The notes under the pieces are model-generated. The model searched no databases. It saw only the letters and a program-made list of their open reading frames with translations, and was not told the origin of the DNA. Both the position numbers and the translations under genes were made by a program. From a virus: DNA of 12,554 nt. Location: UHGV virus genome UHGV-0141061. One strand, 5' to 3'. The first letter of the stretch is position 1. Each line of letters starts with the position of its first letter. This document shows, one piece after another, positions 1 to 12,554 of this stretch.

Positions 1-48
1 TCTACACAGAGTAGATCGTCGGCAGCGTCAGATGTGTATAAGAGACAG
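1..48 (+). other. Illumina Nextera adapter (P5 tail CTACAC, i5 index AGAGTAGA, TCGTCGGCAGCGTC, Tn5 mosaic end AGATGTGTATAAGAGACAG); technical, not biological
   Basis: Read directly: 1-7 tctacac, 8-15 agagtaga, 16-29 tcgtcggcagcgtc, 30-48 agatgtgtataagagacag; its reverse complement is at 12508-12554. Confidence 0.9.
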
Positions 49-602: not shown

Positions 603-1667
603 TTAGTAAGAGATAGGTATTTCTCCTGTAGAGAAGTTGCCTGCTGCACCTTCCCTGCTGCATAAAGCGAACTTCTTATCAACCACATCCCTTGAGTCTG
701 TAGCAATAATTTCATGGCAAATATTATTTGCAGATCTGTGCACGAATGTATTTACAACAGGCTTACTGGACGATGTTCCTTTGGCCCTCGTTCCGTCTAT
801 AAGGCAATCAGACACCGACATAAGTCCTGAAACTAGGTTATTGCTTGAATCCCAATCTATCAACGACTTATCAAAATACACGCTTCCTAACATATAGGTT
901 GTCCCTCCGGAGTAACCAACAAACCTGCGCAGCACTCCACCTTCCAGCCTAATATAGCTGCGAGACATTCCAGACGTAAAGTTCATGAAAGTTATGTCCA
1001 TATTGCTCTCAAGACCATAAAGGCATGATGCATACTCATTCAGGTATCCAATATAAGCTAAAACCTTACAACCAATTGATTTCGCAGGTGTCAGTTTGAC
1101 TATTGATATTTCTCTGGAAGTTGAATCATGGTAAGAGATGGCCCACTCAAATCTTGCATTTTTACCATTAAAGGTGCTTCCGGAGAAATCTATAACGCCA
1201 GGCATAATGAAATCACGAATAATGCTATTTTGTGTCTTAAAATTATTTTTAAATGAAACAATGTTAAGTGTGACTGCGTCAGGCCAGTAGATATTTGTAG
1301 ATATAATTACATTTTTTGGCAGATTTAATGCTCTTGGCTGAACAGGGCTACCAGTGGAAACAACATTATCACACCTGCATGTGAAGAGATCTACAAGCCC
1401 AGTTTTGTCCGATGATATTCTTACCGAACCCCCTTTGACAATAAAATCCCCCTTATGCTCTCCATAGTCAGTGCGAATCCCAAAGGGACCAATATCTGAG
1501 TTTATAATCTGCGTTGATTCATCAAAAGCGCCAGTACCAAAAGCCGCGCCATTAATTATCCTGCAATTGTCTATCAAAACCTTAGACGATCCATAATGAA
1601 GATTGAAGCTATCAACAGTGCAATCTCTTACCACAGTGTCACGGCTATAATTACCATCAATAGAACG
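603..1667 (-). CDS. Tailspike, distal (receptor-binding, beta-helix-like) portion; same frame as 1668-2849 but separated from it by TGA at 1668-1670
   Basis: Track ORF 603-1634 starts at GTG; the frame is open upstream to the TGA (linking codons RSIDGNYSRDTV); Gly/Ser/Asn/Thr-rich beta-strand-like sequence; AT-rich. Confidence 0.55.
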   Translation of the reverse strand, partial: RSIDGNYSRDTVVRDCTVDSFNLHYGSSKVLIDNCRIINGAAFGTGAFDESTQIINSDIGPFGIRTDYGEHKGDFIVKGGSVRISSDKTGLVDLFTCRCDNVVSTGSPVQPRALNLPKNVIISTNIYWPDAVTLNIVSFKNNFKTQNSIIRDFIMPGVIDFSGSTFNGKNARFEWAISYHDSTSREISIVKLTPAKSIGCKVLAYIGYLNEYASCLYGLESNMDITFMNFTSGMSRSYIRLEGGVLRRFVGYSGGTTYMLGSVYFDKSLIDWDSSNNLVSGLMSVSDCLIDGTRAKGTSSSKPVVNTFVHRSANNICHEIIATDSRDVVDKKFALCSREGAAGNFSTGEIPISY

Positions 1668-2849
1668 TCACCCTTTCCCAACAACAGTGCTAAAAAAAGA
1701 ATGCTTCAGAGTAAACTCTAGAGTCAATGTGTAGCGAGATTCAGAATCAGGTTGTGTCATCCCCGATGAGCACAAATACCAATTAACACCGTATGTATTA
1801 CTACTACCAAAAATTGCAGAGTTGATGGGTATTACGCCTAAGGTATTATCATAATTAACCCTTACATCAACCATAGACCTTTTGATATCAACAGCCGTGC
1901 CAGTAAACGTCCCTGATAACTTAGGCAATACAATGACAGTCCTTCGCACAGGCAGCTTATATAAAGTACAGATAAGTGAAGAGTTGTATGTATTCTTAAA
2001 TGTATACGCTAAATCACTTCCTTTGGTTAGTAGGTTAACTTCACCTTTGTATTTTGGCGTGAAAGTGCTGCCAAGCAATCGGTACAAGTCAATTTCAGTA
2101 CCAGACATCTTAACTAAGGAATTATCCCATCCAGTGGTTGACTCTGTAAATGTTAGCGCGGAAGTTAGCTCGTTTAATGGATATGCTGATGGTGTAAAAT
2201 CTTTAATGTATGTAGATGCGTCTCTCTCATCAGCATAAACAATCTTACCGCCAGCCAGGTTGAACGTGCAATTGCTGAGATCAAAATCTCCGTATAACGT
2301 TGTCTCTTTGTCGATAGTGAAAGTCAGTGGCATAGTTGAGTAGATTTTCACTGGAGTTCCTTTAAACTCAGCAAAAACAGAATTCAACTGATCGCTATTT
2401 CTTTCACCATCAGCAGCAGCTATATCGTATACAGAAAGCCTGACCTCTAACCCCCCTATTATTTTGTAACCGTCTGGCGAACTAATTTCATCCATGAACC
2501 TTTGCTCAAACTGGTCAGGGTCATACTTCAGCACATTCGGAAAATAGAACTGCTGAGAACCGTACGCATCGTATACAGCCATAGAATGGCCTTGCACAGT
2601 TACGAATTTGGCAATCTGTCCGTTATATACAGGATACCCGCCAGCGTTAATGATGATTGGCTGTGCAACAGGAACGTGAGAACCGTCTTCGTTTTCCACA
2701 TAAACCTGAATCTGGTTTTCAGGATTTACCGGGTCAGTGCCAATTTTACCGATATAAATTTTGCCATTGGCTACGGCTTTAAAAGAACGAGCCATAGTGA
2801 AGAGTTGCGAAGGCATGCTTACCACAACATTTGCGGTGATATCTGACAT
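1668..2849 (-). CDS. P22-type tailspike, N-terminal part including the head-binding domain; ends at an in-frame TGA
   Basis: From ATG 2847-2849 (GGAG 7 nt upstream): [78 protein letters not shown], which closely parallels the P22 gp9 head-binding domain as I recall it. The track's start at 2897 is an upstream in-frame extension. Confidence 0.8.
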
Positions 2850-2937
2850 TTCATTGCTCCAGACGAATGATATGATGCAACCATGATGTGATTGCATACC
2901 GAAATGGTACTATTGAGTATTTATCCAGTAGGTTACG

Positions 2938-3231
2938 ATGCCATTCCACCCAACTGGTGAGGCATCAAGGATGTACAGCAAATACGACGAGGCGCAGTTT
3001 CACTTGAGACTTCCGCATGAACTTCACGCGAAAATTAAACAGCGTGCGAAGATGAATAACAGGTCGCTGAACTCAGAGATAATTGCAGCGATTGAAGAAT
3101 CATTGACTAAACAAAGCTCTGCATCAGTTTACATTGACGATGCAGAGCGTATGGCAGAACAACAATCCGATATGGTAAAGAAAATTGTCTTTGATACGCT
3201 CAAAGAGCTATATAAAAAAGACAGCAGCTAA
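2938..3231 (+). CDS. mnt: Mnt-like ribbon-helix-helix repressor
   Basis: FHLRLPHELHAKIKQRAKMNNRSLNSEIIAAIEESL...DAERMAEQQSDMVKKIVFDTLKELYKK parallels P22 Mnt (FNFRMPMEVREKLKFRAEANGRSMNSELLQIVQDAL...DAERLADEQSELVKKMVFDTLKDLYKK, recalled). An alternative start is ATG 2971. Confidence 0.8.
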   Translation: MPFHPTGEASRMYSKYDEAQFHLRLPHELHAKIKQRAKMNNRSLNSEIIAAIEESLTKQSSASVYIDDAERMAEQQSDMVKKIVFDTLKELYKKDSS

Positions 3232-3238
3232 CTATCAG

Positions 3239-3742
3239 TTACGGAGGATTCCCGATAGGGGGTAAGGGGGTATTTGTATTTATTGTCTTTTGTATATTGT
3301 CTTTTGTGTTTGACTGATTCGGTAAATTGCTTTTTACCGATTTGGTGAAGGTTTGTTTTACCGAATTGGTAAATGTTTTACCGAATCCGTTAACTTTCGT
3401 TTTCCACTCGGAAATGTTTGTATTCATACCAACTTGACGCCCCACCTGAATGAGAACTCCCATTCTGATAAGCTCGTTTTTGGCGGTAGAGCATTTGGTT
3501 GGTGCCATGCCAGTGAGTTCAGCGAACTGTTCGTTTCCGATCCAATCTATTTTTTTGTTGTAACCGTATGTCTTGCGCCACACAGCCATAACAATCAGTA
3601 ACTGATGTAGAGTAAGTCCAGAAAGCATGGCGGCTTCTAACAGTGTGTTTGCAGTCCGAGTGTAGCCATCTTCGAGTTCTGCCACGCGATGCTCCACGAC
3701 CTCCAGTTGAGGCCTGTAATCAGCTAACTTAACGACGCCCAT
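3239..3742 (-). CDS. Replication initiator O-like protein, N-terminal (iteron-binding) domain only; C-terminal domain absent
   Basis: DGYTRTANTLLEA..LTLHQLLIVMAVWRKTYGYNKKIDWIGNEQFAELTGMAPTKCSTAKNELIRMGVLIQ..NISEW parallels the lambda O N-terminal domain (recalled). AGGAG lies upstream of ATG 3740-3742. The ORF ends at TAA 3239-3241 just after the iteron and A+T-rich segment, where lambda O continues for about 130 more codons. Confidence 0.7.
   Translation of the reverse strand: MGVVKLADYRPQLEVVEHRVAELEDGYTRTANTLLEAAMLSGLTLHQLLIVMAVWRKTYGYNKKIDWIGNEQFAELTGMAPTKCSTAKNELIRMGVLIQVGRQVGMNTNISEWKTKVNGFGKTFTNSVKQTFTKSVKSNLPNQSNTKDNIQKTINTNTPLPPIGNPP
3318..3393. repeat. ori-like iteron array inside the O-like gene
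   Basis: Three direct 18-bp repeats TTTTACCGA(T/A)TTGGT(G/A)AA at 3332-3349 and 3356-3373 and TTTTACCGAATCCGTTAA at 3376-3393, plus an inverted partial copy ATTCGGTAAA at 3318-3327; an A+T-rich segment follows at about 3270-3317, arranged as in lambda ori. Confidence 0.5.
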
Positions 3743-3890
3743 GTTTCACTCCTGCTTTGGCTAGTCTGTAAACACCAACAAGGCGCTCTGCGAACGCCCT
3801 GTTATTTGCTGCGGCTACCACTAATCCCTCAGGTGAATCAGGGTGTCGAATCTCTTCTTTTTCCTGGTATTTCTTACGACGTTTTGTCAT
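3729..3890 (-). CDS. Small basic hypothetical protein (53 aa) between cII and O, overlapping the O-like start
   Basis: ATG 3888-3890 with AGGAG 7 nt upstream; MTKRRKKYQEKEEIRHPDSPEGLVVAAANNRAFAERLVGVYRLAKAGVKHGRR; stop TAA 3729-3731 overlaps the O-like start codon in another frame. Below the track's size cut-off; no homolog recognised. Confidence 0.3.
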   Translation of the reverse strand: MTKRRKKYQEKEEIRHPDSPEGLVVAAANNRAFAERLVGVYRLAKAGVKHGRR

Positions 3891-3900
3891 AATTACTCCT

Positions 3901-4581: not shown

Positions 4582-5371
<790 letters not shown>

Positions 5372-5402: not shown

Positions 5403-5744
5403 ATGACACAATTTCAACTTGCATTAATCGCTAGAGAAGTTGATGGAGAAGTCATCCATCTTCGCACCAAAGACGGATACATCAATGCCACCGCGATGTG
5501 CAAGTCTGCGGGGAAGCTACTTGCTGACTATACACGACTAAAAACAACACAAGATTTTTTTGATGAATTATCACGCGATATGGGGATTCCCATATCGGAG
5601 TTAATTCAATCATTTAAAGGCGGAAGAGCAGAGAATCAAGGGACTTGGGTTCATCCAGACATCGCAATTAATTTAGCTCAGTGGCTATCTCCAAAATTTG
5701 CAGTGCAAGTATCGAGATGGGTGCGTGAGTGGATGTCAGGTTAA
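5403..5744 (+). CDS. KilA-N domain protein (113 aa) immediately downstream of cI, in the position of lambda rexA
   Basis: AGGA 6 nt upstream of ATG 5403; GYINATAMCKSAGK...GTWVHPDIAINLAQWLSPKFAVQVSRWV is the characteristic KilA-N pattern; same strand as cI. Confidence 0.7.
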   Translation: MTQFQLALIAREVDGEVIHLRTKDGYINATAMCKSAGKLLADYTRLKTTQDFFDELSRDMGIPISELIQSFKGGRAENQGTWVHPDIAINLAQWLSPKFAVQVSRWVREWMSG

Positions 5745-5783
5745 AGAGCGCCTGCCGAACTCCCTATCCACCTTAAGCGGTAT

Positions 5784-6162
5784 ATGACAAACCGAGGCAG
5801 AGTTCCTCATACGCACTTTTCTATGCTTAATGAACTGACGTTTAACTTGGTTGCGCCACTTGAACAGGCCGGATATACGCTGCCAGAAAAAATGGTCCCT
5901 GATATTTCAGAGGGTAGGGTTTTCTCGCAATGGCTCCGTGACAACCGGGGGGTTGAGCCGAAGACATTCCCAACATATAACCATGAGTACCCAGATGGCC
6001 GGACATTCCCGGTACGTCTATACCCAAACGAATATTGCAGATTTCAAACAATACTTCAACGAAGTGTGGCTGCCTCAGTACGCTCCTAAATATTTTGCTG
6101 AACGAGACCAAAGGGCATTGACGTTGATTGAGAAAATCATGCTACCTGACCTTGATTCCTAA
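5784..6162 (+). pseudogene. Hypothetical protein with a broken reading frame (+1 shift between two overlapping ORFs 5784-6089 and 5851-6162)
   Basis: Frame 1 ...FPTYNHEYPDGRTFPVRLYPNEY and frame 2 ...NIADFKQYFNEVWLPQYAPKYFAERDQRALTLIEKIMLPDLDS both look protein-like and switch near 6020-6040; frame 1 is also in frame with the upstream KilA-N ORF across TAA 5742-5744; weak ribosome-binding site. Confidence 0.4.
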
Positions 6163-6348: not shown

Positions 6349-6410
6349 AACCATCTGCGGTGATGAATTATCTCTAGCGGTGTTGACATAAATACCACTG
6401 GCGGTGATAC
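6349..6410 (+). promoter_or_regulatory. Lambda-type left operator OL3 (6349-6365), OL2 (6369-6385), OL1 (6393-6409) with PL (-35 TTGACA 6382-6387, -10 GATACT 6405-6410)
   Basis: aaccatctgcggtgatg, tatctctagcggtgttg, taccactggcggtgata and the PL hexamers read directly; near-identical to lambda OL/PL. Confidence 0.9.
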
Positions 6411-6479
6411 TAAACACATCAGCAGGACGCACTACTCACCAGGGCGGTGAATATACAACGATTCAAATATGAATCTACG

Positions 6480-6494
6480 GCGCTGACAAAGCGC
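6480..6494 (+). promoter_or_regulatory. nutL-like boxB hairpin GCGCTGACAAAGCGC (P22 type)
   Basis: Perfect 5-bp stem with GACAA loop about 65 nt downstream of PL; matches the P22 boxB-left sequence as I recall it; no clear boxA upstream. Confidence 0.5.
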
Positions 6495-6557
6495 AATAAC
6501 CAAAGTGAACTTTGGGGTGAATGCAGAAGCTAACCTTCTCGGCGGAGGCGCTTTGCA

Positions 6558-6758
6558 ATGATTACGCTAAGCGAAATGCTTCGCTCATATAAACCAGATG
6601 AACACACTAAGGACGCTATCGACTGGCTGGAAGATGATGACTGTAACTATCAGGAAAAAGCCGCTGAATGGTTCTGGGATGCAATAACCGAAAGAGTTAA
6701 GGCTGAATATGCCTTCGCAATATTCAAACGCAGACACATTTTTGGAGAAGCTGCATGA
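6558..6758 (+). CDS. Small acidic hypothetical protein (66 aa), first gene of the PL operon
   Basis: GGAGG 9 nt upstream of ATG 6558; stop overlaps the next start (ATGA at 6755-6758), implying translational coupling; no homolog recognised. Confidence 0.5.
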   Translation: MITLSEMLRSYKPDEHTKDAIDWLEDDDCNYQEKAAEWFWDAITERVKAEYAFAIFKRRHIFGEAA

Positions 6759-7090
6759 GCAATATCGTTGAATTCGTTAAACAGCAGGAGCAGTTATTCT
6801 GCGGAGCATTGACTGAACAGACGGTGACATGGGCTAAGGAAAGCCAGTTTGCAATTCAGTATTTCCAGAAAAACGATTACCTGGCTAAAACAGCACTGGC
6901 AAATCCAACCAGCGCACAGAACGCCATCATCAATGTTGCGGCGATCGGCATCACCTTAAACCCGGCCAGCAAACTGGCTTATCTGGTTCCTCGCGACGGC
7001 ATGGTGTGCCTTGATATCAGTTACATGGGATTACTTCATCTTGCGCAATCGACAGGATCAATTAAGTGGGGGCAATGCAAACTGGTGTAA
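6755..7090 (+). CDS. RecT/Red-beta-family recombinase, N-terminal fragment (truncated)
   Basis: ..NAIINVAAIGITLNPASKLAYLVPRDGMVCLDISYMGLLHLAQSTGSI.. follows the conserved RecT core pattern (E. coli RecT ..IVQCSQLGLEPGSALGHAYLLPFG..IIGYRGMIDLARRSGQI.., recalled) but stops at 111 aa where full-length proteins have about 270. Confidence 0.5.
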   Translation: MSNIVEFVKQQEQLFCGALTEQTVTWAKESQFAIQYFQKNDYLAKTALANPTSAQNAIINVAAIGITLNPASKLAYLVPRDGMVCLDISYMGLLHLAQSTGSIKWGQCKLV

Positions 7091-7223
7091 AGGGTGTGAG
7101 CACTTTTCAATAGTAGCACCGCAGCAAGATGGGTGATGAAAACAAGTATTTATAACTTAAAGGCATTAAAAAATCGCTTATAGATCAAAAGAAATCTACG
7201 TCAAATATTACTATATTTCAATG

Positions 7224-7232
7224 TGTTATAAT
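7224..7232 (+). promoter_or_regulatory. Candidate extended -10 promoter (TGtTATAAT) for the downstream small ORF
   Basis: TG at 7224-7225 and TATAAT at 7227-7232 inside a very AT-rich segment (7091-7250); no good -35. Confidence 0.3.
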
Positions 7233-7261
7233 TACCCGTCCATAAAATGGGGAGACACAAA

Positions 7262-7504
7262 ATGTTCAAACGCTGCATCACCAAGTGTGGAAGCACACCT
7301 GACATCCACGCTTTTATTAATGAAGATGGTAAGCTTGTTGTTGAGAGGAGTGGTCATTTTATTAGCAAACAACTTATCATTACCTCTCCAGCGGAGATGG
7401 CCGGGGAATGGATAGTTTCTGAACCAGAGGAGTGGCACACCCCTCTTCCTTATGGCCCTCAGGGACTGATTTATAACCGTTATGTTCAGAAGGAGGCGGG
7501 TTGA
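7262..7504 (+). CDS. Hypothetical protein (80 aa)
   Basis: GGAGAC 5 nt upstream of ATG 7262; the track ORF begins at the in-frame ATG 7247, which has no ribosome-binding site; no homolog recognised. Confidence 0.4.
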   Translation: MFKRCITKCGSTPDIHAFINEDGKLVVERSGHFISKQLIITSPAEMAGEWIVSEPEEWHTPLPYGPQGLIYNRYVQKEAG

Positions 7505-7781
7505 CAATGCCAGGCATAACATCGCCGAGCAATCGAAAGAAAAACAGAACAAGGTAAACGTTGACCTTGCAGCATCAGGCGTGGCGTACAGAGAGCGCCT
7601 TAACATACCTGTTATCTGAGCAGGTAGCACGAGAGCAACCTGAGCACTCACGCGAGTATTTCATGGAGCGCGTCAGATACTATCGCGAGCAGTCGTTAAA
7701 CCTGCCCAAGGGAAGCAACCCATGGTATATCGAGATGGATGAACAGAACGCCAAGAAGTAAGCGCAATTTGAACGAATGCG

Positions 7782-7838
7782 AACCCGCCGAGTGCGGGTT
7801 TTCTTTTATCTGAACTCGCTACGGCGAGTTTTGTTTTA
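7782..7838 (+). terminator. Two tandem intrinsic terminators
   Basis: AACCCGC-cgagt-GCGGGTT followed by TTTTCTTTT (7782-7807), and ACTCGC-tacg-GCGAGT followed by TTTTGTTTT (7814-7838). Confidence 0.6.
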
Positions 7839-7850
7839 TGGAGACAAGAA

Positions 7851-8195
7851 ATGTCAGATTTGGCTATGAAGGTTTTGAAATGGCAATCAACTGGCGATGT
7901 CGGCATCAGTAGCGCAACTCTTGCCTCAATCGCATGTGGCCTGAAAAAGAATATCTATGGTCATCACTTCGGCGCTCCCCATGACGCAGCAGACTTTCGG
8001 CGATGCGTTGCACTTGTTGAGCAGATTCCAGAAATCAGAGATTCATTCGACAAGGTTGCAAAGCGCGTTCCGGCATTCAAAGGAATCCTCAACGAATGGG
8101 ATTCCCTCGTTGCTCTGTTGAAGTCTGAAATGAAGATACACGGAAACAAAGCACCAGAGACTTACAGAAGAATCAGCGAGCTACGCAAGGACTAA
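7851..8195 (+). CDS. Hypothetical protein (114 aa), moron-like gene bracketed by terminators
   Basis: GGAGAC upstream of ATG 7851; terminator pairs immediately before (7782-7838) and after (8199-8259); no homolog recognised. Confidence 0.5.
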   Translation: MSDLAMKVLKWQSTGDVGISSATLASIACGLKKNIYGHHFGAPHDAADFRRCVALVEQIPEIRDSFDKVAKRVPAFKGILNEWDSLVALLKSEMKIHGNKAPETYRRISELRKD

Positions 8196-8198
8196 CCC

Positions 8199-8259
8199 GC
8201 CTCACACTCGATGAGGCCTGTTTATATCTGATAGAGCCGCTATATGGCGGTTTATTTTT
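8199..8259 (+). terminator. Terminator-like hairpins downstream of the 7851-8195 gene
   Basis: GCCTCA-cactcga-TGAGGC (8199-8217) followed by a T-rich stretch, and CCGC-tatatg-GCGG (8237-8250) followed by TTTATTTTT. Confidence 0.45.
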
Positions 8260-8274
8260 GCCTGGAGAATTAAG

Positions 8275-8466
8275 ATGACCGATACCAGCCTGATTCCTGA
8301 GAAAGAAGTGATGAACAAGCTCGGTGTTTCATCACGTCAGACAATCTGGAACTATACCAAACGGCACGGATTTCCGAAGCCAGTCAGAACCCACCCCAAA
8401 TCATACCTTCGTGAAGCTGTTGAAGGGTGGATTCTTAACGGTGGCGTTAATCAGAAATGCTCCTGA
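8275..8466 (+). CDS. AlpA/Xis-family DNA-binding protein (excisionase or regulator)
   Basis: GGAGA upstream of ATG 8275; ..MNKLGVSSRQTIWNYTKRHGFPKPVRT..YLREAVEGWI is the AlpA-type winged-helix pattern; lies beside the integrase; its 3' end overlaps the integrase 3' end by 20 bp. Confidence 0.8.
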   Translation: MTDTSLIPEKEVMNKLGVSSRQTIWNYTKRHGFPKPVRTHPKSYLREAVEGWILNGGVNQKCS

Positions 8467-8920
8467 TGTGCCAGAACAATTTATCAGCGTGAAGCTCATA
8501 CGCTTTGCGCTGAGCCTCTATCCAATCGAGTTTATTGTATACGGACATTATCCCGCCAAGTTCATGACCGAGCATTCGCTCAGTAACATGAGGCTCGACA
8601 TTCATCTCGGACAGCCGTGTAACAAGCGTTCTTCTGAAATCATGTGTTCGCCAGTAACCTAGGTCCATCCCTCCCCTTATTCTATTTACGAATCGGTTGG
8701 CTGCAGCGATGCTGATCGGTTTGTTTATGTCTTCTCCAGGGAAAAGAACATCATTGTACGTTGTCATGGCCTTTTCGAGGAAAGGCTTAATTTGTTCGAA
8801 GATTGGACGGCGGATAACATTACCCATCTTGCTATGCTCTTTCGGTACGGTCCATACGTTGTCCAGCAGGTCAAATTCTGTCTTTATTGCCAGCCTAAGT
8901 TCTGAGAGCCTCGCCCCCAC
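8447..8920 (-). pseudogene. Tyrosine integrase (P4 type), C-terminal catalytic fragment
   Basis: ..GARLSELRLAIKTEFDLLDNVWTVP..HDFRRT..LGHELGGIMSVYNKLDW.. shows the catalytic R/H-x-x-R/Y region; its frame differs from the central fragment at a C5 run (8914-8918). Confidence 0.8.
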
Positions 8921-9136
8921 AGCATAAGCATCTGATGAAGTAGCTTATTTGACGTAGACGCACGGCTTCTTTCAATAGCAAGCCAAATCTTAGCCAGTTC
9001 GTGATACGACAGTACCCGATCCCCTACCTCAGCGCGGGAGCCGAAGTCCCTTGGTTGGATGCTCATAATTGCGCAACTATCTATCAACTGACGCCGCATG
9101 CACCAACTAATTGCTGATCTTAGTTGACTTAGCACC
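8884..9136 (-). pseudogene. Tyrosine integrase, central fragment between the IS insertion and the frameshift
   Basis: In frame with the N-terminal fragment once the IS and one target duplication are removed (1341 bp, a multiple of 3); ends at a stop 8884-8886 created by the frameshift. Confidence 0.6.
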
Positions 9137-9200
9137 TGATGTAGCCCCCTGAAACACCAGACAGTAGCTGTATCTCCAGATAAGAGATAGGCTTGAATAT

Positions 9201-9596
9201 ATGTCTAACACTAACACCAATATTGAGATGACCGGGATCCTGTTAGGGCAAGAAGTCCGTAAACGTAAAACTCCTCAGGAGAAGATCGCCATTATCCAGC
9301 AGACGATGGAGCCGGGTATGAATGTCTCCCATGTCGCCCGCCTGCATGGTATCCAGCCCAGCCTGCTGTTTAAGTGGAAGAAGCAATATCAGGAAGGCAG
9401 CCTCACCGCCGTTGCGGCTGGAGAGGAAGTCGTTCCTGCTTCTGAGCTTACTGCTGCTCTGAAGCAGGTCCGGGAGCTTCAGCGCCTTCTGGGCAAGAAG
9501 ACGATAGAAGTTGAGATCCTAAAAGAAGCCGTGGAGTACGGTCAGTCGCGAAAATGGATAGCGCACGCGCCCTTGTTGCCAAAGGACGGGGAATAG
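9201..9596 (+). CDS. IS3-family transposase OrfA (helix-turn-helix and leucine zipper)
   Basis: ..[78 protein letters not shown].. resembles IS2 OrfA. Confidence 0.85.
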
Positions 9597-10435
9597 CCAT
9601 GGTCAGCCGGACCATGGGCGTGTCGCGTGCGCAACTGTCACTGCGGATTAACCGTTCTGCCGACTGGCAGGACAGGCGCTGTAACCGGCGTAATGAAGAA
9701 GCAGACGCAGAAATACTGTCGGCTATCCTCAACATTATCAGCGATATGCCGAGTTATGGTTATCGACGCGTGTGGGGCATCCTGCGCAAGCAACGTCGCA
9801 CAGAGGGACAGCCACCTGTGAATGCCAAACGGCTTTACAGGATAATGAGCGAGCATAACCTGTTGTTGTTGCATCACAAACCAGAGCGACCGAAGCGTGA
9901 ACATAAGGGCAAGATAGCGGTGGCAGAAAGCGATATGCGCTGGTGTTCAGATGGCTTCGAGTTCGGCTGCGACAACGGCGAAAAACTGCGGGTAACGTTC
10001 GCGCTGGACTGCTGCGACCGTGAGGCCATAGACTGGGCAGCAAGCACGGGAGGCTATGACAGTTCGACCGTGCAGGATGTGATGCTGAGGTCGGTGGAAA
10101 AGCGCTTCGGCGACAGGCTGCCGGAAACACCAGTGCAGTGGCTGACGGACAACGGTTCAGCATATACCGCGCATGAAACGCGGAGGTTCGCCAAAGAGCT
10201 GAATCTGGAGCCATGTACAACAGCGGTGAGCAGCCCGCAGAGCAATGGCATGGCCGAACGGTTCGTGAAGACGATGAAGGAAGACTATATCGCGTTCATG
10301 CCGAAACCGGATGTGAGAACAGCCCTGCGGAACCTTGCAGCGGCGTTCACGCATTACAATGAAAATCACCCGCATAGTGCGCTGGGATATCACTCTCCGA
10401 GAGAATACCGGCGGCAGCGGGCATCGTTAACTTAA
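9554..10435 (+). CDS. IS3-family transposase OrfB (DDE catalytic domain), in the -1 frame relative to OrfA
   Basis: ..[92 protein letters not shown].. is a DDE integrase-core pattern resembling IS2 OrfB; overlaps orfA by 43 nt. Confidence 0.85.
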
Positions 10436-10472
10436 GATACAAAAGCTGTCCGGAAATGGCGGGTCAAGATCA

Positions 10473-10965
10473 GCACCTGCCTTGCTCGGCGTGGATTATC
10501 TTTTTCTTCTTCGGTAAGCAGGTCAACCCATTGCTTAACCGTGATAGAAGATGCCGGACGATTAGGGAAGGCGTCATGCATGCGCTTCATAACCGTTGAT
10601 CGGTAAAGTGCCTGGGTCTTTTCTCTGAGAGTTGTAGAGACGTAGTTGTCGAACCAGTAGTCGAGACACTGGGCGACCGTCATGGAGTTCTCCACCTTCT
10701 CTTCAAAATAGGTGCGTGGATCCGTTCCTGAGAAATAGAGCTTCCGCAAGTCAGCAGTGATCTGTCTGGCATCCTTCAAAGACAGGGATGGGTATCGACC
10801 AAGCCCAAGTCGTTTAGGCTTGCCATACCAGCGATAGCGGTACTGGAACTGGATGACCCCCTTCGGTGAAATTCGTACGCTGAGGCCATCGGCATCAGCC
10901 ACTTCTTGTGGGCCCGAATATGGTTTACCATAAATAGTACGCAGTTTTGTGTCGCTTATAGCCAT
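10473..10965 (-). pseudogene. Tyrosine integrase (P4 type), N-terminal fragment upstream of the IS insertion
   Basis: MAISDTKLRTIYGKPYSGPQEVADADGLSVRISPKGVIQFQYRYRWYGKPKRLGLGRYPSLSLKDAR is the characteristic N-terminal arm-binding domain of P4-type integrases; the track ORF continues 13 codons into the IS before stopping. Confidence 0.8.
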
Positions 10966-11146: not shown

Positions 11147-12507
11147 ATGACAGACACAGATAAACAACCTACCTTCCTCTTTCACGATTACGAAACCTTT
11201 GGCACGCACCCCGCGTTAGATCGCCCTGCACAGTTCGCAGCCATTCGCACCGATAGCGAATTCAATGTCATCGGCGAACCCGAAGTCTTTTACTGCAAGC
11301 CCGCTGATGACTATTTACCCCAGCCAGGAGCCGTATTAATTACCGGTATTACCCCGCAGGAAGCACGGGCGAAAGGAGAAAACGAAGCCGCGTTTGCCGC
11401 CCGTATTCACTCGCTTTTTACCGTACCGAAGACCTGTATTCTGGGCTACAACAATGTGCGTTTCGACGACGAAGTCACACGCAACGTTTTTTATCGTAAT
11501 TTCTACGATCCTTACGCCTGGAGCTGGCAGCATGATAACTCGCGCTGGGATTTGCTGGATGTTATGCGTGCCTGTTATGCCCTGCGCCCGGAAGGAATAA
11601 ACTGGCCTGAAAATGATGACGGTCTACCGAGCTTTCGCCTTGAGCATTTAACCAAAGCGAATGGAATTGAACATAGCAACGCCCACGATGCGATGGCTGA
11701 TGTGTACGCCACTATTGCGATGGCGAAACTGGTAAAAACGCGTCAGCCACGTCTGTTTGATTATCTCTTTACCCATCGTAATAAACACAAACTGATGGCG
11801 TTGATTGATGTTCCGCAGATGAAACCCCTGGTTCACGTTTCCGGAATGTTTGGGGCATGGCGCGGCAATACCAGCTGGGTGGCACCGCTGGCGTGGCATC
11901 CAGAAAATCGCAATGCCGTAATTATGGTGGATTTGGCAGGAGACATTTCGCCATTACTGGAACTGGATAGCGACACATTGCGCGAGCGTTTATATACTGC
12001 AAAAGCCGATCTTGGCGATAACGCCGCCGTTCCGGTTAAGCTGGTGCATATCAATAAATGTCCGGTGCTGGCCCAGGCGAATACGCTACGCCCGGAAGAT
12101 GCCGACCGACTGGGAATTAATCGTCAGCATTGCCTCGATAACCTGAAAATTCTGCGTGAAAATCCGCAAGTGCGTGAAAAAGTGGTGGCGATATTCGCGG
12201 AAGCCGAACCGTTTACGCCTACAGATAACGTGGATGCACAGCTTTATAACGGCTTTTTCAGTGACGCAGATCGTGCAGCAATGAAAATTGTGCTGGAAAC
12301 CGAGCCACGTAATTTACCGGCACTGGATATCACTTTTGTTGATAAACGGATTGAAAAGCTGTTGTTCAATTATCGGGCACGCAACTTCCCGGGGACGCTG
12401 GATTATGCCGAGCAGCAACGCTGGCTGGAGCACCGCCGCCAGGTATTCACGCCAGAGTTTTTGCAGGGTTATGCTGATGAATTGCAGATGCTGGTACAAC
12501 AATATGC
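11147..12507 (+). CDS. sbcB: Exodeoxyribonuclease I (SbcB), 3' end truncated by the contig/adapter boundary
   Basis: By-eye translation with no stops: MTDTDKQPTFLFHDYETFGTHPALDRPAQFAAIRTDSEFNVIGEPEVFYCKPADDYLPQPGAVLITGITPQEA...EFLQGYADELQMLVQQYA matches E. coli SbcB except in the first 12 or so residues. Absent from the ORF track, presumably because it has no stop before the window end. Confidence 0.9.
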
Positions 12508-12554
12508 CTGTCTCTTATACACATCTGACGCTGCCGACGATCTACTCTGTGTAG
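12508..12554 (-). other. Illumina Nextera adapter, reverse complement of 2-48; technical
   Basis: ctgtctcttatacacatct gacgctgccgacga tctactct gtgtag read directly. Confidence 0.9.

What the first reader, a model, noticed from the sequence alone, without database searches (positions are those of the whole stretch)
7088..7264. RecT-like gene cut off at codon 111 by an AT-rich segment carrying its own promoter and a novel small gene
The recombinase ORF stops at 7088-7090 in the middle of the conserved core. It is followed by about 160 bp of very AT-rich DNA containing an extended -10 element (TGtTATAAT 7224-7232) and an 80-aa ORF (7262-7504) with a ribosome-binding site. This looks like a replacement of the recombination module by a small foreign gene of unknown function.
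Basis: partly seen in the sequence, partly recalled or inferred. Interest (0 to 1): 0.45.

Follow-up and report, generated by a model that had tools for sequence, protein, structure and literature searches.

The report
Deletion-truncated recT beside a prophage moron
A decaying E. coli prophage lost about 2.5 kb, which cut its recT recombinase gene at codon 111 and placed the stump next to a small self-contained gene cassette (own promoter, 80-aa protein of unknown function) that already belonged to this phage family; this is ordinary prophage decay, and the rare, uncharacterised cassette is the only mildly interesting part.

Summary
The 111-aa ORF (6755-7090) is 100% identical to residues 1-111 of a 300-aa phage RecT. 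An AT-rich spacer follows (27% GC in 7137-7261), carrying TGTTATAAT at 7224-7232. Then come a Shine-Dalgarno sequence and an 80-aa ORF (7262-7504).

The interpretation "recombination module replaced by a foreign gene" is not supported. Related prophages such as L013 carry both an intact recT and the same spacer-plus-gene cassette about 2.5 kb apart. The window is that layout minus one internal stretch. The join is at a 2-bp microhomology (TA, 7088-7089), and the join itself creates the TAA stop. The same junction is found on 30 independent public contigs, so it is not a misassembly.

The cassette looks like a moron, an autonomous accessory gene unit in a phage genome. The gene is under purifying selection (dN/dS 0.14-0.20). 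The family is very small: E. coli and Pectobacterium prophages plus a few unidentified sequencing runs. It sits at different places in lambdoid prophages. Its upstream DNA keeps two invariant blocks in six diverged lineages: CTACGTC and TGnTATnnT, the latter being the extended -10. The protein's function is unknown; the predicted fold is a small all-beta barrel with no significant structural match. The surrounding prophage is heavily degraded.

The parts
6383..6411 (+). pL-type early-left promoter (TTGACA-17-GATACT). It is context only: it lies upstream of the recT stump, and cI (4658-5371) is intact.
   Evidence: Promoter scan. Region 6171-6519 matches the annotated immunity/promoter/nutL region of HK97, mEp234 and HK106.
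6558..6758 (+). 5'-truncated copy of a 103-aa early gene (PHROG 3486). Homology to intact prophages starts only at 6568, so this marks a second deletion scar. The N gene is missing between nutL and this point.
   Evidence: PHROG match covers profile positions 40-102 of 102. L013 has the 103-aa ORF at 647-958, and the window aligns to L013 only from L013:768.
6755..7090 (+). recT stump: codons 1-111 of a 300-codon RecT-family single-strand annealing protein gene, ended by a stop codon that the deletion junction created.
   Evidence: 111/111 identity to E212 RecT residues 1-111. Pfam RecT positions 4-76 of 198. DNA homology to recT ends at 7089.
7088..7089 (.). Deletion junction. The 2-bp microhomology TA is shared by both parental sequences (recT ...CTGGTGTA|CTCAAACG; ead/DUF550 ...TTTGGGCTA|AAGGGTG). 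The TAA stop at 7088-7090 is made by the join.
   Evidence: Three-way alignment, L013 sequences and BLAST boundaries 7089/7088 in all loci.
7089..7136 (+). 3' remnant (last 15 codons plus stop) of an Ead/Ea22-DUF550 gene whose first ~240 codons were deleted.
   Evidence: L013 has the 261-aa ORF at 3108-3893, ending ...WAKGCEHFSIVAPQQDG.... It matches Pfam Ead_Ea22 and is annotated DUF550 in L002.
7137..7261 (+). AT-rich regulatory spacer of the cassette (27% GC). It is conserved with the gene in unrelated prophage contexts.
   Evidence: Composition. Against the 69%-identical copy, 7153-7232 is 77.5% identical and 7190-7232 is 84% identical, while synonymous sites in the ORF differ at p = 0.65.
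7193..7202 (+). Conserved upstream motif AATCTACGTC, with the core CTACGTC invariant. It is centred about 41 bp upstream of the predicted transcription start. A second copy sits 21 bp further upstream in the Pectobacterium-type copies. Candidate regulator binding site.
   Evidence: Alignments A6 and A8. Two exact copies at L044:4911 and 4932. The combined motif-plus-promoter pattern hits 31 stretches in IMG/VR, 30 on the contigs that carry the gene and the other next to a diverged copy of it.
7224..7232 (+). Predicted extended -10 sigma-70 promoter element TGtTATAAT. There is no recognisable -35. The predicted start is near 7238-7242.
   Evidence: Exact match. T7224, G7225, T7227, A7228, T7229 and T7232 are invariant in six diverged lineages. 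The -35/-10 scan did not report it because the -35 is poor.
7249..7254 (+). Shine-Dalgarno sequence GGGGAG, 7 nt before ATG 7262.
   Evidence: Sequence. A purine-rich SD lies at the equivalent place in all homologous loci.
7262..7504 (+). 80-aa protein gene (PHROG 9613, function unknown). Predicted small six-strand all-beta protein with no signal peptide or membrane segment.
   Evidence: PHROG E = 8e-49. dN/dS 0.14-0.20 and codon-position differences of 14/16/30 against L043. No indels in 24 unique copies, and the ORF is intact in all fetched copies except L017. AF2 pLDDT 80.7 and pTM 0.70. No Pfam, NCBIfam, PADLOC or PDB sequence match.
7482..7761 (+). Pol III theta (HolE / P1 Hot)-like gene, here a pseudogene through a 2-bp deletion after 7615. 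It is the second gene of the E. coli version of the cassette.
   Evidence: Pfam DNA_pol3_theta E = 1e-10 on the 3' frame. Indel analysis. Translations across loci.
7781..7831 (+). Two tandem intrinsic-terminator-like hairpins that close the cassette.
   Evidence: Terminator scan: 8 found against 2.0 +/- 1.4 expected. The Pectobacterium copy has a similar hairpin directly after the small gene.

Best explanation
The window is a heavily eroded lambdoid/P22-like prophage integrated next to sbcB.

An illegitimate deletion of roughly 2.5 kb, measured against the L013-type layout, joined recT codon 111 to the last 15 codons of an Ead/Ea22-DUF550 gene. The join is at a 2-bp microhomology. The deletion removed recT codons 112-300, a Sipho_Gp157 gene, a 104-aa gene, a DUF5405 gene, a DUF2737 gene and about 240 codons of the ead gene. 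The recT stump is a dead remnant.

The AT-rich DNA and the 80-aa gene were not inserted. They are a pre-existing moron-type cassette of this phage family that the deletion happened to bring next to recT. The cassette consists of:
- a conserved upstream site, AATCTACGTC;
- an extended -10 promoter, TGnTATnnT;
- a Shine-Dalgarno sequence;
- a ~75-80-aa all-beta cytoplasmic protein gene;
- in E. coli, a theta/Hot-like gene;
- intrinsic terminators.

Shown here: the truncation, the deletion architecture, the recurrence of the junction, the reality of the gene, and the conservation of the promoter and motif.

Inferred: that the promoter fires independently of pL, for instance in the lysogen where cI represses pL; that CTACGTC is a regulator binding site; and that the protein acts as a lysogen-expressed accessory factor by binding a host or phage protein.
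For: Truncation:
- The ORF is 100% identical to residues 1-111 of a 300-aa RecT.
- It matches Pfam RecT only over profile positions 4-76 of 198.

Deletion rather than replacement:
- L013, L019 and L037 carry an intact recT together with the cassette, 2.5-3.0 kb apart.
- The left and right homologies abut at 7089/7088 with TA microhomology.
- The block shared by all relatives extends 220 bp to the left of the junction.
- The missing genes were identified.

Real junction, not an artefact:
- The exact 111-aa product is on 30 contigs in 65 index blocks, from NCBI, ENA and Logan, all within the same remnant prophage.

The cassette is native and mobile as a unit:
- It is in 88 of 5,426 complete E. 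coli genomes and 31 IMG/VR prophages.
- Diverged copies sit next to xis/int in Pectobacterium (L044-L046; likewise L050, organism unknown), in a nin region (L047) and beside a Rac-like replication module (L043). Where an upstream gene is called, the upstream gap is 170-260 bp.
- The Pectobacterium copy has promoter, gene and terminator in sequence.

Promoter:
- The TG and T-A-T-x-x-T positions, and CTACGTC, are invariant in six lineages.
- The motif-plus-promoter pattern is essentially exclusive to this gene in 2.9 million viral contigs.

Gene:
- dN/dS is 0.14-0.20.
- The ORF is kept intact in every fetched copy except L017, while the neighbouring theta gene carries at least two independent lesions.
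Against: - No transcription data exist. TGNTATAAT alone is expected 0.62 times per window by chance, the -35 is poor, and the standard scan did not call the promoter.
- AT-rich DNA also yields promoter-like hexamers on the minus strand, for example TTGAAA-17-TAGATT.
- L013 is 96.5-98.9% identical to the window, not its direct ancestor, so the exact size and content of the deletion are inferred.
- Within the closely related E. coli copies, variable sites fall 2/8/8 by codon position. That gives no evidence of constraint at short range; the constraint is seen only against the diverged copy.
Confidence: 0.8

Rival explanations
1. One reading: a foreign AT-rich cassette carrying its own promoter and gene was inserted into, or replaced, the recombination module, cutting recT.
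For: - Composition drops sharply right after the recT stop, to 27-33% GC.
- The cassette does behave as a mobile unit and is found in several prophage contexts.
Against: - The DNA immediately right of the junction (7089-7136) is the tail of an Ead/Ea22-DUF550 gene. That gene precedes the cassette in relatives which still have an intact recT 2.5-3.0 kb upstream.
- The junction lies inside a block conserved in all relatives. Nothing is present in the window that is absent from L013-type prophages.
Confidence: 0.04
2. The junction is an assembly chimera. The contig comes from untrimmed Nextera data, with adapter sequence at both ends.
For: Both contig ends are i5 Nextera adapter sequence. None of 5,426 complete E. 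coli genomes holds the joined sequence.
Against: - The identical 111-aa junction product and the same flanking genes occur on 30 contigs from independent NCBI, ENA and Logan assemblies, with contigs up to 46 kb.
- A 2-bp overlap cannot cause a k-mer mis-join.
Confidence: 0.02
3. The conserved spacer is not a plus-strand promoter. The 80-aa gene is then expressed only by read-through from pL, and the conserved blocks serve another role, such as an operator or silencer site, a minus-strand promoter for an antisense RNA, or a 5'-UTR element.
For: - No plus-strand terminator-like hairpin was found between pL (6383-6411) and the gene.
- Minus-strand promoter-like hexamers overlap the CTACGTC motif.
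- There is no -35 element.
- No Rfam family matches the spacer; the only hit is a weak rsmX-like match at 7700-7834, outside it.
Against: - The invariant positions are exactly those that define an extended -10 (TG at -15/-14; T-12, A-11, T-10, T-7), at a fixed 30-45 nt before the start codon in six lineages.
- Candidate minus-strand -10 elements are not conserved between lineages (my reading).
- The cassette occurs where no pL-type read-through is expected in the same way (nin region), and in Pectobacterium it carries its own terminator.
Confidence: 0.15
4. The 111-aa RecT N-terminal fragment is a functional short protein retained by selection.
For: The ORF is intact and identical on 30 contigs. 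A weak match exists to a 108-aa PHROG of unknown function (phrog_19737, E = 9e-5).
Against: - Its stop codon is created by the deletion junction.
- It lacks about two thirds of the RecT core.
- Identity across contigs reflects one recent clonal lineage, since the loci are 99.3-100% identical over 2.1 kb.
- The rest of the prophage is decaying. N is missing, the BstA and tailspike reading frames are split, theta is frameshifted and the integrase is cut by an IS.
Confidence: 0.03

Closest known systems
RecT-family single-strand annealing proteins of lambdoid/P22-like phages (e.g. E212, mEpX1, Kapi1 RecT; Pfam PF03837, PHROG 148)
   Same: Residues 1-111 are identical to the E212 RecT. The gene sits in the same place, downstream of the PHROG 3486 gene in the early-left operon.
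   Different: Only 111 of 300 codons remain. The Pfam core is covered to position 76 of 198, and the downstream Sipho_Gp157 gene is also lost. It is a pseudogene fragment, not a working recombinase.
Phage 'morons' (autonomous promoter-gene-terminator units in lambdoid prophages, as defined by Hendrix and colleagues; named from my own knowledge)
   Same: - AT-rich upstream region with a promoter-like element.
- A single small gene.
- Terminator(s) downstream.
- Patchy presence among related phages, at different genomic positions.
   Different: - Promoter activity and expression in the lysogen have not been shown.
- The ORF itself is 46.5% GC, which is not unusual for this contig.
- The E. coli version carries a second gene (theta-like).
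- The product is unrelated to known moron functions such as Bor, Lom, Cor or SieB.
Extended -10 (TGn) sigma-70 promoters
   Same: The sequence is TGtTATAAT. TG and the key -10 positions are invariant across the family, and no -35 is needed for this promoter class (class properties from my own knowledge).
   Different: No mapped transcription start. The invariant CTACGTC at about -41 suggests extra regulation that is not part of the class definition.
P1 Hot / E. coli HolE (Pol III theta) homologues in prophages
   Same: The gene directly downstream of the 80-aa ORF matches PF06440. It accompanies both E. coli cassette types, the window type and the L074 type.
   Different: It is frameshifted here and carries an internal stop in most copies. 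It is absent from the Pectobacterium-type and L047-type cassettes, so it is not the conserved core of the unit.
Split beta-barrel small domains (PilZ, FMN-binding split barrel, phage head-tail adaptor/stopper proteins)
   Different: - The scores indicate only a general fold resemblance, at 3-13% sequence identity.
- Foldseek found nothing at E <= 0.001 in either PDB or BFVD.
- Reading the sequence, the PilZ RxxxR and D/NxSxxG motifs are absent.

Membership tests
RecT family (PF03837 / TIGR00616) | Significant sequence match to the family profile | tested here: met
   Pfam E = 4.5e-6, 26.8 bits against a cut-off of 24. PHROG 148 E = 2.6e-34. The match is 100% identical to a full-length RecT N-terminus.
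RecT family (PF03837 / TIGR00616) | Complete annealing-protein core (about 198 profile positions; protein of about 270-300 aa) | tested here: not met
   Only profile positions 4-76 of 198 are present. TIGR00616 scores 17.6 bits against a cut-off of 52.65. The protein has 111 of 300 residues. It is a gene fragment.
Moron (autonomous accessory unit in a prophage) | Own promoter upstream of the gene | tested here: inconclusive
   The extended -10 is present and phylogenetically invariant. No transcription data are available, and the element alone is not above chance in the window.
Moron (autonomous accessory unit in a prophage) | Own terminator downstream | tested here: met
   Terminator-like hairpins lie at 7781-7801 and 7812-7831. 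The Pectobacterium copy has a hairpin plus T-run immediately after the gene. These are predictions only.
Moron (autonomous accessory unit in a prophage) | Present or absent among otherwise related phages, and found in different genomic contexts | tested here: met
   - Present in 88 of 5,426 E. coli genomes, against 2,009 genomes that match the neighbouring early-left/xis DNA.
- Contexts: next to xis/int, in a nin region, and beside a Rac-like replication module.
Moron (autonomous accessory unit in a prophage) | Nucleotide composition different from flanking phage genes | tested here: inconclusive
   The spacer is 27% GC, in the lowest 0.8% of windows, but the ORF is 46.5% GC against a contig mean of 45.3%.
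Extended -10 sigma-70 promoter | TG at -15/-14 directly upstream of a good -10 hexamer | tested here: met
   TGTTATAAT at 7224-7232. TG, TAT and the final T are invariant in six lineages.
Extended -10 sigma-70 promoter | Transcription initiates 6-8 nt downstream and depends on the TG motif | not testable with these tools
   Needs 5'-RACE or dRNA-seq, or reporter mutagenesis.
DNA Pol III theta / Hot (PF06440), for the neighbouring gene | Intact reading frame of about 76-93 aa matching the profile | tested here: not met
   The profile match covers only the 3' frame (positions 35-67 of 70). A 2-bp deletion after 7615 splits the frame.
PilZ domain (considered for the 80-aa protein) | RxxxR and D/NxSxxG c-di-GMP binding motifs; significant fold match | tested here: not met

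The most novel reading that the evidence does not exclude
The cassette is a previously unrecognised, lysogen-expressed prophage accessory system. A small all-beta protein family, found so far only in a few Enterobacterales prophages, would be driven by an extended -10 promoter under control of an unknown regulator that binds AATCTACGTC repeats. The protein would modulate a host process.

Two observations hint, very weakly, at a link to the Pol III proofreading complex. The gene is repeatedly paired with a Pol III theta homologue. Among the fetched copies, the only one with an intact 93-aa theta gene (L017) is also the only one in which the small ORF carries a nonsense codon.
Probability: 0.15. 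Interest if true: 0.5.

Novelty: new member of a known kind. Interest (0 to 1): 0.22.

Why it matters
The truncated recT does not matter much. It is one of several deletion scars in a dying prophage, and it shows how an illegitimate deletion can mimic a module swap when the sequence is read alone.

The cassette is a tidy example of a moron whose regulatory DNA is better conserved than the synonymous sites of its gene. That gives a concrete, testable promoter and operator (CTACGTC plus TGnTATnnT) and an orphan protein family (PHROG 9613) kept intact while its neighbouring gene decays. If the protein proved to be a lysogen-expressed exclusion, defence or host-modulating factor, it would add a small new family to that catalogue. 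Nothing here yet shows that.

Tried and rejected
- Homology for the 80-aa protein: Pfam, NCBIfam, PADLOC and a PDB sequence-profile search found nothing. tblastn against 50,697 phage records found no match. A word-indexed search of 5.8 billion proteins gave 9-12 clusters. An exhaustive HMMER profile search of 1.84 billion representatives gave 14 hits. Four of these (P0014-P0017) are repetitive large proteins that I judged spurious, and one (P0010) is a read-through gene-calling artefact.
- Taxonomic range: GTDB species representatives hold no protein relative. The DNA motif there gave only 8 hits, in unrelated taxa, which I took as chance. JGI metagenomes yielded only E. coli-type copies.
- RNA families: nothing in the spacer; the only hit was a weak rsmX-like match at 7700-7834, well below the gathering score.
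- Other copies of AATCTACGTC in the window, as a route to a regulon or regulator: only near-matches that tell nothing.
- Literature on prophage theta/Hot cassettes: nothing relevant.
- Minus-strand promoter reading of the conserved motif: rejected as the main explanation because the candidate -10 elements are not conserved between lineages.
- Programmed +1 frameshift at AUC-UGA in the theta gene: rejected because most relatives simply have two extra bases (CA) there.
- IS terminal inverted repeats: the repeat finder did not detect any.

Full report
**What the window is.** ORF listing, Pfam/PHROG scans and the gene tables of identical public contigs show a remnant lambdoid/P22-like prophage beside sbcB. 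In order along the window:

| Coordinates | Feature |
|---|---|
| 34-567 | acyltransferase fragment |
| 603-2897 | split tailspike |
| 2938-3231 | mnt |
| 3239-3742 | truncated O replication gene |
| between 3742 and 4658 | cII, cro |
| 4658-5371 | intact lambda-type cI |
| 5403-6089 | BstA fragments |
| 6383-6411 | pL (TTGACA-17-GATACT) |
| 6558-6758 | 5'-truncated PHROG 3486 gene |
| 6755-7090 | the 111-codon recT ORF |
| 7137-7261 | AT-rich spacer |
| 7262-7504 | the 80-aa ORF |
| 7482-7761 | theta/HolE-like gene |
| 7781-7831 | two terminator-like hairpins |
| 7851-8195 | 114-aa gene |
| 8275-8466 | AlpA/xis-like gene |
| 8447-9135 and 10432-10965 | integrase, split by an IS3-family element (orfA 9201-9596, orfB 9554-10435) |

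Both contig ends are Nextera adapter sequence.

**Checking the observation.**
- The ORF 6755-7090 matches Pfam RecT only over profile positions 4-76 of 198. It is 111/111 identical to the first 111 residues of the 300-aa RecT of phage E212.
- The intergenic DNA 7137-7261 is 27.2% GC, in the lowest 0.8% of 125-bp windows of the contig.
- TGTTATAAT lies at 7224-7232.
- GGGGAG lies at 7249-7254, 7 nt upstream of ATG 7262.
- The 80-aa reading is the one annotated by PGAP in relatives. The upstream in-frame ATG at 7247 and the 94-aa gene calls found in some databases are not conserved. An indel in the window shifts the frame of the 94-aa start, so 7262 is the start shared by all homologues.

**What cut recT.**
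- Megablast against phages and against 5,426 complete E. coli genomes splits the region exactly at 7088/7089. recT-type homology ends at 7089, and homology to the right-hand block starts at 7088.
- A three-way alignment shows the junction ...CTGGTGTA|AAGGGTG.... Intact recT continues ...GTGTA|CTCAAACG. The right-hand parent reads ...TTTGGGCTA|AAGGGTG. The two share only TA, or 5 of 7 bases over TGGTGTA/TGGGCTA. The TAA stop is made by the join.
- The right-hand parent is the 3' end of an Ead/Ea22-DUF550 gene, 261 aa in L013. Bases 7089-7136 are therefore its last 15 codons plus stop, not spacer.
- The IMG/VR prophages L013, L019 and L037 contain the intact 300-codon recT and the spacer-plus-gene block on the same molecule, 2.5-3.0 kb apart.
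- Relative to L013, the window lacks L013:1290-3826. That stretch holds recT codons 112-300, a Sipho_Gp157 gene, a 104-aa gene, a DUF5405 gene, a DUF2737 gene and about 240 codons of the ead gene.
- The block conserved in all 30-odd relatives starts about 220 bp to the left of the window's junction (L013:3602-3611). The junction therefore sits inside a conserved block. It is a lineage-specific illegitimate deletion, not a mosaic module boundary or an insertion.
- It is not a misassembly. The exact 111-aa product occurs on 30 contigs, in 65 index blocks, from NCBI, ENA and Logan, always inside the same remnant. No complete E. coli genome in the collection carries the junction.

**The cassette.**
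- The 80-aa protein matches PHROG 9613 (unknown function, E = 8e-49) and nothing in Pfam, NCBIfam, PADLOC or PDB sequences.
- The family is very small. An exhaustive HMMER profile search of 1.84 billion representatives gave 14 hits, several of them artefacts. There is no relative in 185,579 GTDB species representatives and none in INPHARED phages.
- The E. coli type occurs in 88 of 5,426 complete E. coli genomes, in 31 IMG/VR prophages, and in gut metagenomes.
- Diverged members (42-69% identity) occur in a second E. coli-type prophage (L043, L074), in Pectobacterium carotovorum prophages (L044-L046) and in unidentified Logan samples (L047, L050, L105).
- Their positions differ: next to xis/int, in a nin region between a methylase and NinG/Q, and beside a Rac-like replication module. 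Where an upstream gene is called, a 170-260 bp gap precedes the gene.
- The gene is real. Against the 69% copy, dN/dS is 0.14-0.20, and differences fall 14/16/30 by codon position. Among 24 unique E. coli-type sequences there are no indels, and the ORF is intact in every fetched copy except L017.
- The adjacent theta gene, by contrast, carries an internal stop in most copies and a 2-bp deletion in the window lineage and L013.

**The promoter question.**
- On its own, TGNTATAAT is not above chance in 12.5 kb: 0.62 matches are expected. The standard -35/-10 scan misses it because the -35 is poor.
- The comparative evidence is much stronger. In alignments of six diverged lineages, the invariant non-coding columns fall into two blocks.
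  - One is CTACGTC (7196-7202) with the AA that follows it.
  - The other covers TG (7224-7225), TAT (7227-7229) and T (7232). These are exactly the defining positions of an extended -10.
- Against the 69% copy, 7190-7232 is 84% identical, while synonymous sites in the ORF differ at p = 0.65.
- The combined pattern ATCTACGTCRAA-N14-17-TGTGNTATNNT hits 31 stretches in 2.9 million IMG/VR contigs. Thirty are the contigs that carry the gene, and the other one led to a further diverged copy.
- In the Pectobacterium-type copies the AATCTACGTC motif is duplicated 21 bp upstream, which is two helical turns. The gene there is followed at once by a hairpin and T-run.
- With a start near 7239, the motif centre lies at about -41.5, a position typical of activator or operator sites (my inference).
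- I therefore rate an autonomous sigma-70 promoter at about 0.7-0.75. It remains a prediction.

**Verdict.**
- Observation: confirmed.
- Interpretation: partly supported. The truncation is real, the promoter is plausible, and the small gene is real and uncharacterised.
- "Replacement by a foreign gene": wrong. A deletion of about 2.5 kb in a decaying prophage placed a dead recT stump next to a pre-existing moron cassette.
- Novelty: the stump is ordinary, and the cassette is a new, rare member of a known kind.

Noticed in passing
window 1-47 and 12508-12554: Both contig ends are the Illumina Nextera i5 adapter (TCTACAC-AGAGTAGA-TCGTCGGCAGCGTCAGATGTGTATAAGAGACAG) and its reverse complement. The assembly was made from untrimmed reads, so ORFs called across these ends (32-193, 34-567, 12288-12554) are partly artefactual.
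   Followed up: partly
window 7482-7761 (lesion after 7615): The Pol III theta (HolE / P1 Hot)-like gene is frameshifted by a 2-bp deletion, shared with L013. Most other copies instead have an in-frame stop after codon 50. Among the fetched copies, the only one with an intact 93-aa theta (L017) is also the only one in which the upstream 80-aa ORF has a nonsense codon. That pattern rests on a single case and may be coincidence.
   Followed up: partly
window 5403-5744 and 5784-6089: A BstA-type abortive-infection gene lies downstream of cI, in the position of lambda rexAB. It is broken into a KilA-N ORF and a fragment matching BstA profile positions ~160-250 (PHROG 6287, PADLOC BstA).
   Followed up: partly
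window 6383-6568: pL (TTGACA-17-GATACT) and a nutL-type region matching HK97/mEp234 run to about 6519. Homology to L013 resumes at 6568, inside a 103-aa gene. The N antiterminator gene and everything between nutL and that gene are missing, so this is a second deletion scar.
   Followed up: partly
window 8447-10965: The tyrosine integrase is split by an IS3-family insertion sequence (orfA 9201-9596, orfB 9554-10435). The upstream integrase part is further split into two overlapping ORFs (8447-8920 and 8884-9135). Intact versions exist in other E. coli genomes. The repeat finder did not detect the IS terminal inverted repeats.
   Followed up: partly
window 603-2897 (minus strand): The P22-type tailspike, identified by its head-binding domain, is split into 343-aa and 409-aa ORFs here and in L004. 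In sister contigs L005-L008 it is a single ORF of 748 aa, which points to recent pseudogenisation within the lineage.
   Followed up: no
window 2938-3742: A 167-aa N-terminal fragment of replication protein O abuts mnt and the tailspike. The P, nin, Q, lysis and head genes are all absent, so a large deletion fused the replication region to the tailspike/immI region.
   Followed up: no
L044 4900-5265 (Pectobacterium carotovorum CP046377.1): This is the clearest version of the cassette. It has two exact AATCTACGTC repeats 21 bp apart, then TGTGTTATGAT, an SD, a 74-aa gene, and immediately afterwards the hairpin AAACCCGCCCTGTGCGGGTTTTTT. A conserved 158-aa gene of unknown function follows in L044-L046, L050 and L105.
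   Followed up: partly
window 7781-7831 and 8199-8253: Two pairs of tandem terminator-like hairpins on the plus strand bracket the 114-aa gene (PHROG 1229, unknown function). This suggests a second moron-like unit between the theta gene and xis.
   Followed up: no
window 7232-7651 (minus strand): A 139-aa antisense ORF overlaps the 80-aa gene and the start of theta. Variable sites fall 8/8/2 by its codon positions, the opposite of what a coding frame would show, so it is probably spurious.
   Followed up: partly
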